Shown here piece by piece: positions 49,471 through 55,486 of a stretch of DNA of 64,000 nucleotides; position 1 is the stretch's first letter; every line of letters starts with the position of its first letter. A program made the translations under genes and the position numbers. This DNA is from Octopus vulgaris (lineage: Eukaryota): the NCBI GenBank assembly GCA_951406725.2, contig OX597820.1, positions 109,988,001-110,052,000 of the forward strand, read 5' to 3'. The notes below the pieces were generated by a model. The model ran no database searches. It was not told the origin of the DNA and saw only the letters and a program-made list of their open reading frames with translations.

Positions 49471-49934
49471 TATATATATCCGGTTCCGTTTTCCGCAGAG
49501 AAAGACGTGATTGCCTTTGCTCTGTGAAAAAGTTTGCATAGAACGGCGAAATAACCCACTGTAGTTGCAAAACGTAAAACTCTAAGTCATAGAGATCACT
49601 ACAACACTTTGGTTAAAAATATTTTTAAAAATATATATATAAATATATACATATACACAGTAATTTTCATTTTCGCCGAAACGCACATGGTGCAAAAATA
49701 ACTGAATCAAGTTATCTCCTCCAAGAAAGAAAAAGAAGTATCTCTCCTGAAAAAAATCCCGTAAACCAAGAAAAATAATCCAGACCACATTGTTGGATTA
49801 AGTATCAATTTCATCTATTTCATATTTTATTTATTATTCTATTTTATCTTTCACTTAGGCCCACATCTTAGTTAAAGTTGCGATCGTCATTTTGTTTGTT
49901 TACATTTTCAATATCTGTTCTCGATATAATAATT

Positions 49935-51483
49935 TTCCAGATACTCTATCTTCTAATTAGCCTTAAGATTAAATTAAATAACGTTTAATATTGATACCGT
50001 CAAATTAGCCTTAGGATTAAATTAAATAACGTTTAATATTGTTTAATATTGTTAATAATTATTGTTAATTAGCCTTAAGATTAAATTAAATAACGTTTAA
50101 TATTGTTTTAATATTGTTAATAATCTTTCAGATACTCTATCTTCTAATTAGCCTTAAGATTAAATTAAATAACGTTTAATATTAATAACGTCTAATTAGC
50201 CTTAGGATTAAATTAAATAACGTTTAATATTGTTAATAATTATTGTTAATTAGCCTTAGGATTAAATTAAATAACGTTTAATATTGTTTAATATTGTTAA
50301 TAATTACTGTTAATTAGCCTTAAGATTAAATTAAATAACGTTTAATATTGTTTAATATTGTTAATAATTATTGTTAATTAGCCTTAGGATTAAATTAAAT
50401 AACGTTTAATATTGTTTAATATTGTTAATAATTATTGTTAATTAGCCTTAAGATTAAATTAAATAACGTTTATTGTTAATAATTCTTCAGTTTCTTCTAA
50501 TATTGTTAATAATTAACGTTTAATATTGTTTTAATATTGTTAATAATCTTTCAGATACTCTATCTTCTAATTAGCCCTAAGATTAAATTAAATAACGTTT
50601 AATATTAATAACGCCTAATTAGCTTAGGATTAAATTAAATAACGTTTAATATTGTTAATAATTATTGTTAATTAGCCTTAGGATTAAATTAAATAACGTT
50701 TAATATTGTTTAATATTGTTAATAATTACTGTTAATTAGCCTTAAGATTAAATTAAATAACGTTTAATATTGTTTAATATTGTTAATAATTATTGTTAAT
50801 TAGCCTTAGGATTAAATTAAATAACGTTTAATATTGTTTAATATTGTTAATAATTATTGTTAATTAGACTTAAGATTAAATTAAATAACGTTTAATATTG
50901 TTAATAATTCTTCAGATACTCTATCTCCTGATTAGCCTTAAGATTAAATAACGTTTTTATCCACACTCTAATATAATATTAATATTGCTAATATATTTTC
51001 AGATACTCTATCTCCTAATTAGCCTTAAGATTAAATTAAATAACGGTTAATATTGCTTAATATTGTATATATAATTTTTCAGATACTCTGTCTTCTAATT
51101 AGCCTTAAGATTAAATTAAATAACGTTTAATATTACCCACACTCTAATATAATATTAATATTGCTAATATATTTTCAGATACTCTATCTCCAAATTAGCC
51201 TTAAGATTAAATAACGTTTTTTTTTTTTTACCCACACTCTAATATAATATTAATATTGCTAATATATTTTCAGATACTCTATCTCCTAATTAGCCTTAAG
51301 ATTAAACAACGTTTTTATCCACACTCTAACATAATATTAATATTGCTAATACATTTTCAGATACTCTATCCCCTAATTAGCCTTAAGATTAAATAACGTT
51401 TTTACCCAAATAACGTTTTTACACAAACTTTAATATTGTTAATATTTCTTTTTCAAGTACTCTATCTTCTAATTAGCCTTAAT
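49935..51483. repeat. AT-rich minisatellite, ~22 copies of core TAATTAGCCTTA(A/G)GATTAAA(TTAAA)TAACGTTT
   Basis: Counted by eye. Unit spacing is mostly ~48-96 bp, with a ~423-bp higher-order duplication. Confidence 0.95.
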
Positions 51484-51543
51484 ATCTTCCTGTCTTCTCT
51501 CGAACATAATTAGATAGATAAACGGATAGACGGATTATCCAGC

Positions 51544-52456
51544 ATGTCCAGAGCATGGAGACGTGACGAGCTGGATTTATTCGTACGAGCATGGGAGTGC
51601 GCCGGCGGAGATAGCCCTAGCGGAGGTGATTGCGGCTGCGCTGAAGAGCAGAGGCTACAAGAGGACAGCGGCTCAGATGGAGCGAAAGAGACAGGAATTC
51701 GTGCGCTCATATGCGCTTGTACGGTCGCACATTGGCGCACTTGATGCCATCTTTGAGAACGAGCGGGGCAAAGATGGCAAGAATGGAGACGATGAAAGAA
51801 GTCACCCCCACCTGGTGGACGCCCGGGAGGAGGTTTTGAATGAGAAACCTGCCCGGGAAGTGAACCCAGGTGCAAGTTCTCCAACCGGCAGCAAGGGCCA
51901 TGGAGACGGAGAACCCGGTGAAGAGGTAGAGGGAGGAAGAAGAACTAAAAGAAGGACTGGAAGAGCTAAAGGAAAAGAAAAAGCTCAAGCAGGACCAAAG
52001 AGTGAAACAACCAGAAATAGAAGTGGAACCGCAAAGGATGGAACCAAACAGCGCACACGGGTGTGTATGTTCTACCTGAGAGGTTCCTGCTGGCATGGAA
52101 AGGAAGGTGCAGGCTGCCGCTTTGCACATCGGGGACCCTGCCACAGAGACACGAGGCAGATGGACAAACCATCAACACAAAGAAAAGGGATGGACCACGC
52201 ACCACCTGCCCCAAAGCGGAGGTACGCAGATGTTGTGCGCGCCACAAACAGCCAACATGATGTTGTCGAAAGAGCAGCTGCTGAGCAACAATCTTTTTTG
52301 TGCATGGCACAAAAGATTGTACAGCAGCTGACCTGGCTTCATCAAACCCAAGCCCGCAGGTGGGACTACCCACTATATACCAGACCACCACAGCAAACAG
52401 ACACAGGATGGACACCGCCGGCAACAACGTACACCTCACCTCGATACTCCTACTGA
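51544..52456 (+). CDS. LINE ORF1: Myb/SANT-like (trihelix-type) N-terminus plus CCCH zinc finger, with one frameshift near 51600-51620
   Basis: The ATG 51544 frame gives WRRDELDLFVRAWE. The +1 frame gives EVIAAALKSRGYKRTAAQMERKRQEFVRSY, then C-x7-C-x8-C-x3-H at 52064-52129 and RRYADVV. Confidence 0.75.
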
Positions 52457-55394
52457 ACATCAGAGGACTGCAAACACTCAGTAACAGGACAAAGATCCCG
52501 TTCCTGAGAGACTTTGTTGCATGCAATCAAGCCATATGCATAGCACTTACAGAAACGCACCTGAAACCGGACATAGCAGATGCGGAGTTACACATACCAC
52601 AGTATGCTGTACTACGGACCGACAGGAAAGAAAGGAGTCATGGAGGTGTTGCTATGTACATCCGTGAGGACCTCACACCCCAGGTCCTCTTGTCATACTC
52701 AAACTCGGTGTGTGACACACTAATTGTACATATTAGGCAACTTGATGTAGTTGTGTGTGCTACATATCGCCCTCCAGATGCCCCAAGCCATGTGGGCAAG
52801 TTTGAAGACTGCCTTATAAAAATAGAAGAAATTCTAACCACATTAGAACAACACATAGGTGTGCTTCTTATGGGAGACTTCAATCTGCCCAATGTCAGAT
52901 GGCCCGAGGGCCTTTCTCTCCCAGGAATGACAAGATGTGAACGAGGACAGGCGAGGTCCCTCCTGAACCTCACCAACACCCTGTACATGGAGCAGGTAAT
53001 ACTCCAACCAACCAGGGCAGGTAACACACTGGATCTCTGCTTCACAAATGACATGGATCTCATCCATAATGTGAAAGTGACACCGACACTACTCTCGGAT
53101 CACAACATGATAGAGCTGACCATGTACGGGCCAAAAGAGAGCACGGACATGCAGCCTACAAGAAACCCTCAAAATCTTTCCAGCTTGAACTACCATAAGG
53201 CAAACTGGAAACAAATTGAGAAAGAGATCCTCAAACAAAACTGGCCTAAATGTCTCTCCTCGCCAGACATCGACGTGAAACTTCAACAATTCATGTCTGT
53301 AATGCAAGCCATATGCTACAAATGTGTCCCAGAGAGAAAGGCCACTGTACACAAGAACAAAATCCCCAGAGAGAGGAAAATTTTAATGAGACGGCGTACG
53401 AAATTTTCAAATCGCCTAAACAAACAGATTGAAAGCAGTGAAAAGTCCCGCCTAAAAATAAAACTGTTGGAAATCGAAAAATGTCTGCAACTCTCCCATG
53501 AAAAAGAAAGAGCAGACAAAGAAGCCTGGGCTATAGAAAACATAAAATCTAACCCCAGAGCTTTCTACAGGTATGCCAAAGAAACAGCTACAGTGCACTG
53601 TAGAATAGGGCCACTCCTCGAAAAGGATGGCACACTTACAGGAAAACCAATGAGGGTAAGTGAAATACTGAATGAGCAATTCAAGAGTGTTTTCACTCCA
53701 CCCCTTGGGCATCTCCAAATCACCAATCCAACTGACTTTTTTACCACTGCAGATATAAAATCAGAGGCGGCGACGATAGATTACATCGATATAAAGGAAG
53801 ACGATGTAACCAAGGCTATAGATGAAATGAAAACAGACTCAGCTACTGGCCCCGATGGATTCCCGGCAATCCTCCTAAAAGCATGTAAGAGAGTCCTAGC
53901 AAGACCACTGCAGTTCCTCTTTCAGAGCTTCCTTGCAGCTGGCAAACTTCCAGGAAAACTGAAGGAAGGTAAAATATGCCCCATTCATAAAGGAGGTAGC
54001 AGAGCGGAAGCCAAGAACTATAGACCTATCTCTCTGACCTCACACATCAGCAAGGTCATGGAACGAATAGTCAGAAGGAAGCTGATCACCTTCCTTGAAG
54101 AGAATGACTTGCTGCCCGACACCCAACATGGTTTCCGACCAGGGAGAAGCTGTTTAACTCAGCTCCTACAACACTATGACTGGGTGCTGAAACGGCTGGT
54201 CAACCACTCAAATGTGGAAGTGATATATCTCGACTTTGCAAAGGCCTTTGATAAAGTCGATCATGGAATGATATGTCACAAACTGCGTGATCTCAACATA
54301 GTTGGAAAACTGGGAGAATGGCTTCATGACTTAGAAGTCAGGTGGTAGTAGCCAATGGGGCCACCTCCATTAACACACAAATAGTGAGCGGTGTTCCGCA
54401 GGGCACTGTTCTGGGACCACTACTGTTCATAATGGCCCTCTCAGACATGCCCTCAGCCACGCAGAGAGCCACGATCACAAGTTATGCAGATGATACAAAA
54501 GTTTCACAGGCAATACAGAACCCTGAGGACACTAAACACCTGCAATGTGAGCTGGACGAAATATACAAGTGGGCTGAAAAGAATAGCATGCAGTTCAATG
54601 CTGGAAAGTTTCAAGCTTTATACTATCAGCATGCAAAACTGAATGCAATACCCAATGAATACACTGGACCCGGAGGGATTGCAATCCCAGAGGCACAATC
54701 AGTGCGTGACCTGGGTATTCACATGAGTGATGACGCGACCTTTCATGTACATGTTGCTAAACTGACAATGAAATGTAGACGGCTGGCTGGATGGATTCTT
54801 AGAACCTTTAGAACAAGAGAACAAGAAACCATGATGGTCCTCTGGAAGACACTTGTCCTAAGCCACTTTGACTATTGCTCTCAGCTATGGTCACCATCCA
54901 GTGTCAAGTTGATCACAGAACTTGAGGCGATCCAACGAAGCTACACAAAGAAGATAGCCTCTATGCAGAATGTAAGCTACTGGGAAAGACTCAAGAGATT
55001 AAAATTATATTCCCTGGAGCGTAGGCGGGAAAGATATGCCATAATATACATCTGGAAGATCCTGGAGGGAAGTGTCCTGAACTTTGGTATCGAGAGTTAC
55101 GCAAATGCCAGAACTGGGCGCTACTGCGTGGTGCCTAGGACTACAAACCTGCCATCAAGATATAGGACAAGATACTGTGATAGCCTGGGCTTCCGAGGCC
55201 CACAGCTCTTCAATATCCTCCCGAAGAACCTGAGAGACCTGCATCGGGTGGATACAGATGTCTTTAAAATGAAGCTGGATCTCTTCCTGTCACGTGTCCC
55301 AGATGAACCAACTTCACGGCAGGAGGGGCAGATGAGGGCAGCTGCATCGAACTCTCTCATGCACCAAATAGCAGCTGCTACAAAGCCTCCATGA
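52408..55394 (+). CDS. LINE ORF2: APE endonuclease plus reverse transcriptase (single frameshifting deletion at ~54332)
   Basis: NIRGL, LTETHL, YRPP, MGDFN, LDL, SDH; then [55 protein letters not shown]. Confidence 0.95.
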
Positions 55395-55486
55395 AGTGAA
55401 ACCAAGTAGCAACACAAAATGGCGGTGCCCCAGCATGGCCACAGCTCATAAGCTGAAACTAGAATCAATCAATCAATCAATCAATC

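What the first reader, a model, noticed from the sequence alone, without database searches (positions are those of the whole stretch)
49479..55486. Young, apparently full-length CR1-type LINE combining a 1.5-kb repeat array, a Myb/SANT+CCCH ORF1 and an RT, inserted in (TA)n
Seen: (TA)n, a ~450-bp unique leader with conspicuous CpGs, ~22 tandem units, ORF1 starting only ~60 bp after the last unit, ORF2, (AATC)6, then (TA)n. Known: CR1/L2 ORF1s usually carry PHD, RRM or esterase domains, and tandem 5' monomer promoters are best known from rodent L1. Inference: the array is the element's own 5' UTR or promoter. ORF1's predicted DNA-binding domain may recognise it, since nearly every unit carries TAACG (Myb-core-like) and TAATTA. 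That would make a self-regulating array + binder + RT module that I do not recognise from described cephalopod LINEs.
Basis: partly seen in the sequence, partly recalled or inferred. Interest (0 to 1): 0.82.

Follow-up and report, generated by a model that had tools for sequence, protein, structure and literature searches.

The report
Octopus LINE: repeat leader, Myb ORF1
This is a broken copy of a young, abundant octopus jumping gene that carries an AT-rich repeat run of variable length directly in front of its first gene in other samples and organisms too; that gene encodes a predicted Myb-type fold plus a zinc finger, a pairing not found for such elements in the papers searched, but nothing shows that the protein binds the repeats.

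Summary
The anatomy is real: leader, 22-unit AT-rich array, ORF1, APE-RT ORF2 and (AATC)6 tail. But both ORFs are frameshifted and the 5' flank is a 100-N gap, so this copy is dead and its left (TA)n is only 9 bases. The array is not a chance neighbour. In 4 runs from 3 organisms, the last array unit is about as deep as the ORF1 start (ratio 0.9-1.9). Single contigs bridge array to ORF1 in two runs, without this copy's ORF1 frameshift, and unit number varies between copies. It looks like the true 5' end: CGTG at +27, CpG-rich, ATG-depleted on the sense strand only. ORF1 belongs to an octopus family with a predicted Myb/SANT/trihelix fold (below Pfam cut-offs, Z up to 7.5), one CCCH finger and a C-terminal helix; a distant relative has CCCH fingers without the Myb part. 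The self-binding idea has no support: the repeated motif is AACGTT, not a Myb core, and counts as one amplified event. Verdict: a new variant of a known kind (CR1-group LINE with an ORF1 type absent from the surveys read, and a minisatellite 5' UTR).

The parts
49371..49470 (.). 100-N assembly gap directly upstream; hides the left flank
49471..49479 (.). 9 bases of TA repeat, all that is visible of the left (TA)n
49480..49930 (+). Unique leader, likely the 5' end and internal promoter: CGTG at +27 (49506-49509), CpG o/e 1.28, one ATG (49687) against 6.1 expected
   Evidence: link to the array in other copies not tested
49931..51490 (+). AT-rich minisatellite array, 22 units of 48-129 bp, 422-bp higher-order duplication, no ATG on the + strand; unit number varies among copies
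51491..51543 (+). Short spacer between the array and the ORF1 start
   Evidence: bridged by contigs
51544..52456 (+). ORF1, frameshifted near 51621 in this copy
51544..51765 (+). ORF1 N-terminal three-helix Myb/SANT/trihelix-like domain (predicted from intact relatives)
52064..52129 (+). CCCH zinc finger, C-x7-C-x8-C-x3-H
52270..52360 (+). Conserved C-terminal helix of ORF1
52408..55394 (+). ORF2 (APE endonuclease about 52528-53112, RT about 53983-54719); overlaps ORF1 by 49 bases; frame broken at 54333 by a deletion that other copies lack
55420..55455 (+). Predicted double hairpin in the 3' UTR, kept in the neighbouring diverged LINE fragment
55463..55487 (+). (AATC)6 tail
55487..57270 (.). 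(TA)n tract downstream, continuing to 59985 beyond a second LINE fragment
57271..58190 (+). 5'-truncated copy of a related LINE subfamily (76.5% DNA identity over 797 bases) with a different repeat tail, in the same (TA)n tract

Best explanation
This is a doubly frameshifted, likely near-complete copy of a young, abundant octopus APE-RT LINE (likely CR1 group) whose family carries a variable-length AT-rich minisatellite directly before an ORF1 made of a predicted Myb/trihelix domain, one CCCH finger and a C-terminal helix. Shown: the anatomy, the two breaks, the array-ORF1 link in other samples, unit-number variation, and a 5'-to-3' rise in depth. Inferred mechanism: RNA polymerase II starts at the first bases of the unique leader from an internal, TATA-less promoter with a DPE-like CGTG at +27. 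The array is transcribed as the inner part of a 2-kb 5' UTR; it is ATG-free, so scanning ribosomes would pass it. It grows and shrinks by slippage or template jumps and is a passenger or dosage element, not the core promoter. ORF1p would package the RNA through the CCCH finger and basic linkers. Its Myb-like domain likely binds DNA, target unknown; AT-rich target DNA is as plausible as the element's own array. ORF2p would recognise the 3' double hairpin, nick in (TA)n and reverse-transcribe in place, usually stopping early, which gives many 5'-truncated copies.
For: Array-ORF1 link: one contig spans 51342-51751 in a shallow run of organism C (depth 39.8, 2 differences, 1 gap) and one spans 51379-51958 in an organism A run guessed to be RNA (depth 124, 0 differences, 1 gap); both gaps are at the ORF1 frameshift. 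Depth of the last-unit bin over the ORF1-start bin is 0.86, 0.89, 1.34 and 1.93 in 4 of 4 runs; the 3' end is 14-60 times deeper. Joints that skip or repeat one unit reach depths of 1,064-1,588 in run X2. Leader: ATG 1 against 6.1 (P=0.005) while the antisense triplet is not depleted (11 against 9.3); CGTG at +27, P=0.008-0.037; CpG o/e above all 108 control windows. A DPE with a CGTG core is reported at +25 to +32 in L1Tc, jockey, Doc, G, I, F, SART1 and TRAS1 (PMC4748587, passages). ORF1: three helices at pLDDT 80-97 in two models; best structural matches RAD MYB (Z 7.5, rmsd 2.4, 58 aligned), LUX, GT-1, ARR1, DNAJC2 SANT; Atlas first hit 0.90 to a Myb_DNA-bind_4 cluster; conserved W9, W21 and basic helix 3 (R44 16 of 16, K52 and K53 15 of 17); the finger matches MBNL1 zinc fingers (E 0.002). 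3' hairpins: 25 of 26 cells paired, 2 pairs changed on both sides.
Against: Summed contig depth is not a copy number (tool's warning) and only 32 of 74,889 pieces were shown. The RNA label of X7 is a guess, so transcription of the array is not shown. No Myb hit reaches Pfam's gathering score (3 of 17 members hit at all), Foldseek gave no match at E<=0.001, and Z under 8 may mean only a common helical arrangement, with TEA and homeodomain folds within about 1-2 Z. A third of shuffled proteins also get ten of ten Atlas hits in one clan. The hairpin comparison has two sequences and 118 of 500 shuffles equal it. The CR1 label rests on recalled motifs, not on a tree with labelled references.
Confidence: 0.7

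Rival explanations
1. Self-regulating module: the ORF1 Myb-like domain binds a site repeated in each array unit and so controls its own element's transcription or loads onto its own RNA as it is made.
For: The Myb-like fold has a conserved basic third helix; the array travels with ORF1; Harbinger DNA transposons encode a Myb/SANT-trihelix protein that binds their own DNA (PMC9392472, passages). Two of four units tested are mildly rich in palindromic hexamers (P about 0.02; the other two P 0.13 and 0.20).
Against: The c-Myb core YAACKG occurs once in 1.56 kb; the repeated word is AACGTT; one ancestral unit holds TAACG by chance 6-10% and TAATTA 18-28% of the time. The finger's closest solved relatives are RNA-binding MBNL fingers. 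No binding data exist, and it is unknown whether the diverged ORF1 subfamilies (24-27% identity among the full-length ones) share this array.
Confidence: 0.12
2. The Myb-like domain is a targeting module: it tethers the RNA-protein particle to (TA)n or other AT-rich DNA, where the endonuclease then cuts.
For: Both LINE copies in the window lie in one (TA)n tract; the domain is conserved across subfamilies while the linker diverges.
Against: Two copies in one tract are a small sample; an unrelated 62-bp-repeat element also sits beside (TA)n twice in the window, so these tracts may collect any insertion. Target choice in APE-type LINEs is usually ascribed to the endonuclease (recalled).
Confidence: 0.2
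3. The element begins inside the array, as mouse L1 begins in its monomers; the array itself is the promoter and the 450-bp leader is flanking DNA or another repeat.
Against: The leader begins right after TA repeats with CGTG at +27, is CpG-rich and sense-strand ATG-depleted; the array is 20% GC, unlike the CpG-island monomers of rodents (PMC5381506, passages).
Confidence: 0.15
4. The array is an independent satellite beside which this one LINE copy landed.
For: Array bins sum 1.2-4.4 times the ORF1-start depth in the first bin; only the last 3-4 units were tested.
Against: Deep single contigs bridge array and ORF1 in two small assemblies from two organisms, and both lack this copy's frameshift; last-unit depth matches ORF1-start depth in 4 of 4 runs. 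The excess in the first bin is what collapse of upstream units would give.
Confidence: 0.04

Closest known systems
CR1-group (Jockey superfamily) LINEs and their ORF1 types (PMC4120745: section 6 with Table 1, passages, supplement search; PMC13343379: section 15, passages)
   Same: ORF1 plus overlapping APE-RT ORF2, short 3' UTR, simple-repeat tail, mostly 5'-truncated copies; modular ORF1 turnover; repeating subunits near the 5' UTR are reported in some vertebrate CR1-group elements (1-5 units of 100-500 bp).
   Different: The listed ORF1 domains are PHD, RRM, CCHC, Tnp22, esterase and zf/leucine zipper; neither paper contains the words CCCH or Myb. The reported 5' subunits are in ORF1-less elements and far fewer than 22.
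Mouse and rat L1 monomeric 5' UTR promoters; tandem motifs in horse, elephant, hyrax, opossum L1 and the T-rich repeat block of cow L1 (PMC5381506 passages; PMC9022269 abstract)
   Same: Tandem units of variable number upstream of ORF1.
   Different: Rodent monomers form the extreme 5' end, are about 200-650 bp, CpG-rich and are the promoter. Here the array is internal, 20% GC, 48-129 bp per unit, follows a unique promoter-like leader and ends 54 bases from the ATG. The cow's internal T-rich block is the nearer analogue.
DPE-type internal promoters of jockey, Doc, G, I, F, SART1, TRAS1 and L1Tc (PMC4748587, passages)
   Same: CGTG core about 25-32 bases inside the 5' end; here at +27 from the TA junction.
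   Different: The start site here is not mapped and activity is untested.
PIF/Harbinger Myb/SANT-trihelix proteins and MSANTD genes (PMC9392472, passages)
   Same: A transposon-encoded Myb_DNA-bind_4-like three-helix domain; a possible donor of the module.
   Different: Harbinger is a DNA transposon whose Myb-like protein binds the element's DNA and the transposase; here the domain is fused to a CCCH finger in a LINE ORF1 and no binding is shown.
HTH_1 ORF1 of Coccomyxa L1/Zepp (PMC5203782, passages)
   Same: Precedent for a helix-turn-helix domain in a LINE ORF1.
   Different: LysR-type HTH in an algal L1, not Myb/trihelix, no CCCH.
Recently active CR1 families of Octopus vulgaris (PMC13282606: parts 1-2 of 3, supplement search)
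   Same: 13 recently active CR1 families with 787 near-full-length insertions; this family is likely among them or their relatives.
   Different: The paper gives no ORF1 or 5' UTR anatomy; its consensus library (Zenodo) could not be seen.

Membership tests
APE-type non-LTR retrotransposon (LINE) | APE endonuclease and RT in ORF2 | tested here: met
   Exo_endo_phos_2 E 5.7e-12, RVT_1 E 2.7e-13 and 1.1e-10; intact 1033-aa relative at 86%
APE-type non-LTR retrotransposon (LINE) | Multi-copy with excess of 3' ends (5' truncation) | tested here: met
   3'-end depth 14-60 times ORF1-start depth in 4 of 4 runs; summed contig depth is only a rough measure
APE-type non-LTR retrotransposon (LINE) | Target-site duplication | tested here: inconclusive
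   Both flanks are TA repeats and the left one ends in a gap
CR1 clade | RT groups with labelled CR1 references | not testable with these tools
   No labelled Repbase/Dfam references; the tree has none. C-terminal ORF2 motifs look CR1-like from recall only
CR1 clade | Short-repeat tail rather than poly(A) | tested here: met
   (AATC)6.2
Described Jockey-superfamily ORF1 types I-IV | PHD, RRM, CCHC, Tnp22 or esterase domain | tested here: not met
   None of these among the listed Pfam hits of the query or of 25 relatives; types from PMC4120745 Table 1
Myb/SANT/trihelix domain | Three-helix fold matching Myb/SANT structures | tested here: met
   H11-23, H29-39, H46-75 at high pLDDT; 11 of 50 top titles name Myb, SANT or GT-1, best Z 7.5; moderate scores
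Myb/SANT/trihelix domain | Pfam Myb_DNA-bind_4 gathering score (27 bits) | tested here: not met
   Best 19.2 bits, E 0.0017; 3 of 17 members hit
Myb/SANT/trihelix domain | Sequence-specific DNA binding | not testable with these tools
   Basic helix 3 conserved is only suggestive
CCCH zinc finger | C-C-C-H spacing conserved in relatives | tested here: met
   All four ligands kept in 7 of the 8 aligned sequences with a recognisable finger (P0010 has lost cysteines; P0015 and P0019 align there only as unrelated ends); MBNL1 match E 0.002; Pfam score below cut-off
Rodent L1 monomer promoter | Units form the extreme 5' end | tested here: not met
   451 unique bases precede the array in this copy; other copies not tested
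Rodent L1 monomer promoter | GC/CpG-island units | tested here: not met
   20% GC, about one CpG per unit
Rodent L1 monomer promoter | Unit number varies among copies | tested here: met
   Unit-sized skips and back-joints at depth 134-1,588 in run X2
Rodent L1 monomer promoter | Units drive transcription | not testable with these tools
   Needs reporter assay or CAGE

The most novel reading that the evidence does not exclude
An octopod LINE lineage captured a Myb/trihelix DNA-binding domain into ORF1 and uses it on its own 22-unit 5' array (or on the (TA)n target), making a retrotransposon that encodes its own sequence-specific transcription or targeting factor, with array length as a tunable dial.
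Probability: 0.15. Interest if true: 0.8.

Novelty: new variant of a known kind. Interest (0 to 1): 0.5.

Why it matters
LINE ORF1 proteins are treated as RNA-binding packaging proteins, and the surveys read list no Myb or CCCH type. An octopus family that pairs a predicted DNA-binding fold with a CCCH finger adds an ORF1 type and suggests module capture after a CCCH-only ancestor. The family is abundant and young in animals where LINE activity in the brain is debated, and prior octopus work described RTE and Dong elements, not this one. The array is a natural length variant of a likely 5' UTR, so its effect on expression is directly testable. If ORF1p proved to bind the array or (TA)n, it would be a new way for a LINE to regulate or aim itself; that step is unsupported so far.

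Tried and rejected
No whole genome is held for this window, so copies could not be counted in an assembly. Array patterns found nothing in metagenome or viral contigs. The ORF2 scan of metagenomes gave only distant relatives (80 loci, 23-49% best-segment identity); 21 with upstream DNA were screened, none matched the ORF1 profile convincingly (best E 5e-4, in an ORF overlapping the ORF2 region) and none showed a comparable array right before ORF1, though two carry other tandem repeats upstream. No RNA holder was listed; this is no evidence either way. The word shares cannot show whether the leader is multi-copy (leader 8% of words). The Atlas gave no usable hit for the whole frameshifted ORF1 piece. 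Foldseek gave no match at E<=0.001 for either model. The trimer prediction for the C-terminal helix gave no verdict (score 0.02). Rfam found nothing at E<=0.1. Two array units folded as RNA are no more stable than shuffles (z +0.54) and the leader start is not either (z -0.98). Lack of ATG in the array is not significant per unit (P 0.25-0.48). My regex for splice donors and acceptors around the array found none. The careful tree did not finish; the quick tree was used. Earlier scan notes held no look-alike sequence. Literature searches for a Myb or CCCH LINE ORF1: 9 papers with 4 of 5 terms, none on topic by listing; 0 papers; for CR1 5' minisatellites: 2 papers, listing only; 0. Repbase, Dfam and the Zenodo library of PMC13282606 were not available and may already hold this family.

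
Full report
Observation. The layout is as described, with two corrections. A 100-N gap at 49371-49470 leaves only 9 bases of TA repeat upstream. A 451-bp unique leader follows, then 22 array cores (units 48-129 bp, 20% GC, with a 422-bp duplication at 98%), a 54-base spacer, ORF1 from ATG 51544, ORF2 from ATG 52408 overlapping ORF1 by 49 bases, a 68-base 3' UTR and (AATC)6.2, then (TA)n. 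Both ORFs are broken: tblastn with intact relatives changes frame at 51621-51626 and at 54333. ORF2 carries APE and RT domains. A 5'-truncated relative at 76.5% identity lies in the same TA tract at 57271-58190. Named relatives of ORF1 are from Octopus vulgaris and O. sinensis and of ORF2 from O. sinensis and Argonauta hians.

Does the array belong to the element? No genome was held, so I laid 51240-55460 (the last 3-4 units, ORF1, ORF2) on 4 of the 24 listed runs: three organisms, four studies. Single contigs bridge array and ORF1 in the two small assemblies: 51342-51751 in organism C (depth 39.8; 2 differences, 1 gap) and 51379-51958 in an organism A run guessed to be RNA (depth 124; 0 differences, 1 gap). 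The gap in each lies at the ORF1 frameshift, so these copies have an open ORF1 there. In the deep runs single contigs within the last units reach depths of 3,380 (X2) and 11,722-14,150 (X3), against mostly 30-170 for the listed diverged pieces. The last-unit bin is 0.86-1.93 times the ORF1-start bin in 4 of 4 runs and the 3' end is 14-60 times deeper, the pattern expected of one element with 5' truncation and not of a large free satellite. Joints in X2 that skip 89 bases or go back by about one unit (depth 134-1,588) show that unit number differs among copies. At 54332 loose ends on both sides in X2 and X3 and a 10-gap contig show that other copies hold bases this copy lacks. Seven of the eight listed organism C pieces differ from the window at 9 of 1,754 bases (the eighth is a diverged piece at depth 3), so the family is young: about 1-1.5 million years at the rate quoted in PMC13282606, a rough figure. 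Limits: summed contig depth is not a copy number, 32 of 74,889 pieces were shown, RNA is a guess, and assembly error cannot be excluded for this copy's breaks.

The leader. It has one ATG against 6.1 expected from dinucleotide shuffles (P=0.005) while the antisense triplet is not depleted (11 against 9.3). Its CpG ratio of 1.28 exceeds all 108 control windows. CGTG starts at +27 from the TA junction (P=0.008 with the whole leader shuffled, 0.037 with the first 100 bases). A CGTG downstream promoter element at +25 to +32 is reported for L1Tc and for jockey, Doc, G, I, F, SART1 and TRAS1 (PMC4748587, passages). These tests were chosen after inspection, but together they favour the leader as the 5' end and core promoter, which makes the array an internal part of a 2-kb 5' UTR. 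That differs from rodent L1, where CpG-rich monomers form the 5' end and are the promoter (PMC5381506 passages; PMC9022269 abstract).

ORF1. A full phmmer scan gave 25 hits; 16 were aligned with the query. Left out were a lipin gene model with an ORF1 fragment, two generic multi-CCCH proteins, one triple-CCCH protein of another lineage and five short fragments. The family has an N-terminal domain of about 75 residues, a disordered linker, one CCCH finger and a C-terminal helix. The N-terminal domain hits Myb_DNA-bind_4 below the cut-off (best E 0.0017; 3 of 17 members). The Atlas's first hit is a Myb_DNA-bind_4 cluster at 0.90. Two AlphaFold models of intact relatives give three helices at pLDDT 80-97. 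Structural search ranks RAD MYB (Z 7.5, rmsd 2.4, 58 aligned), LUX, GT-1 trihelix, ARR1, DNAJC2 SANT, TEAD4 and Zeste within 1 Z; 11 of 50 titles name Myb, SANT or GT-1, and from recall most others are Myb-like. No score reaches Z 8 or Foldseek E 0.001. W9, W21, R44, Q48, K52, K53, R58 and Y60 are conserved; a basic third helix fits nucleic-acid binding (inference). The finger's closest solved relatives are MBNL1 fingers (E 0.002).

Origin. In a quick tree of 39 ORF2 proteins (24 proteins including the query piece, and 15 of 80 loci; careful search unfinished) the octopod sequences form a clade (SH-aLRT 100) within a lineage whose outermost member, L001, has an ORF1 with a cysteine-rich N-terminus and three CCCH-like fingers. 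Its first finger aligns with the octopus finger (weak, probability 9%) and it matches another triple-CCCH hit at E 3e-21. Elements with PHD or esterase ORF1s fall outside. This suggests a CCCH-bearing ancestor and a later gain of the Myb-like module, but only one outgroup ORF1 is in hand. The CR1 label rests on recalled C-terminal motifs and the repeat tail.

The self-binding idea. TAACG is in 20 of 22 units but as part of AACGTT; the c-Myb core (recalled, YAACKG) occurs once. A shuffled single unit holds TAACG 6-10% and TAATTA 18-28% of the time, and the units are copies of one another, so the repeats are one event. Harbinger's Myb-like protein binding its own element is a real precedent (PMC9392472, passages), so the idea is not excluded; I put it at 0.12, below targeting to AT-rich DNA (0.2).

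3' end. Both LINE copies fold the same double hairpin just before their different tails; 25 of 26 cells pair, two pairs change on both sides and the second loop is wholly replaced. With two sequences the shuffle control is uninformative (118 of 500). It is likely the RT recognition signal (inference from stringent-type LINEs, recalled).

Comparison and verdict. The Jockey-superfamily ORF1 survey lists PHD, RRM, CCHC, Tnp22, esterase and zf/leucine zipper, with no mention of CCCH or Myb and no octopus sequence in its supplements (PMC4120745). A 2026 vertebrate survey reports 1-5 repeating subunits near the 5' UTR of some ORF1-less CR1-group elements (PMC13343379). Octopus papers describe RTE and Dong elements (PMC9115989, passages) and count 13 recently active CR1 families without anatomy (PMC13282606). 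Searches found no paper on a Myb or CCCH LINE ORF1; Repbase, Dfam and the Zenodo library were out of reach. An earlier AI note on another genome describes a CR1/L2 LINE with 88-bp 5' monomers (unchecked). So 5' arrays in LINEs are a recurring, known feature; the ORF1 architecture is the newer part. New variant of a known kind; interest 0.5.

Noticed in passing
window 57271-58190: 5'-truncated copy of a sister LINE subfamily (76.5% DNA identity) in the same (TA)n tract and orientation, with a different tail repeat (about TTTAAGGA) but the same predicted 3' double hairpin.
   Followed up: yes
window 59991-60920 and 27079-27408: Another interspersed repeat family with an internal 55-68-bp tandem array, headed by (ATC)n and flanked by (TA)n at both places; possibly a SINE or MITE-like element.
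   Followed up: partly
protein P0008: A lipin N-terminal gene model whose last 67 residues are a piece of this LINE's ORF1 linker (61% identity): exonisation or a chimeric gene prediction.
   Followed up: no
L001:958-2553: LINE ORF1 with a cysteine-rich N-terminus and three CCCH-like fingers and no Pfam hit; with P0023 it points to a wider, unnamed CCCH class of LINE ORF1.
   Followed up: partly
L007:1-258 and L023:521-995: Two distant LINE loci also carry tandem arrays upstream of their ORFs (13-bp x 20 and 27-bp x 15).
   Followed up: no
window 8411-8686 (-): Old RT fragment of another LINE (about 30% identity to ORF2).
   Followed up: no
window 18109-18987 (-), 19857-20750 (-), 47906-48310 (+): Open frames that look like DNA-transposon (Tigger and Tc1-like) transposase remnants, judged by eye.
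   Followed up: no
window 55188-55460, run X7: In the run guessed to be RNA, depth is flat along the element (50-245) but jumps to 1,700-3,300 in the last 270 bases, suggesting short 3' fragments or a SINE sharing this 3' end.
   Followed up: no
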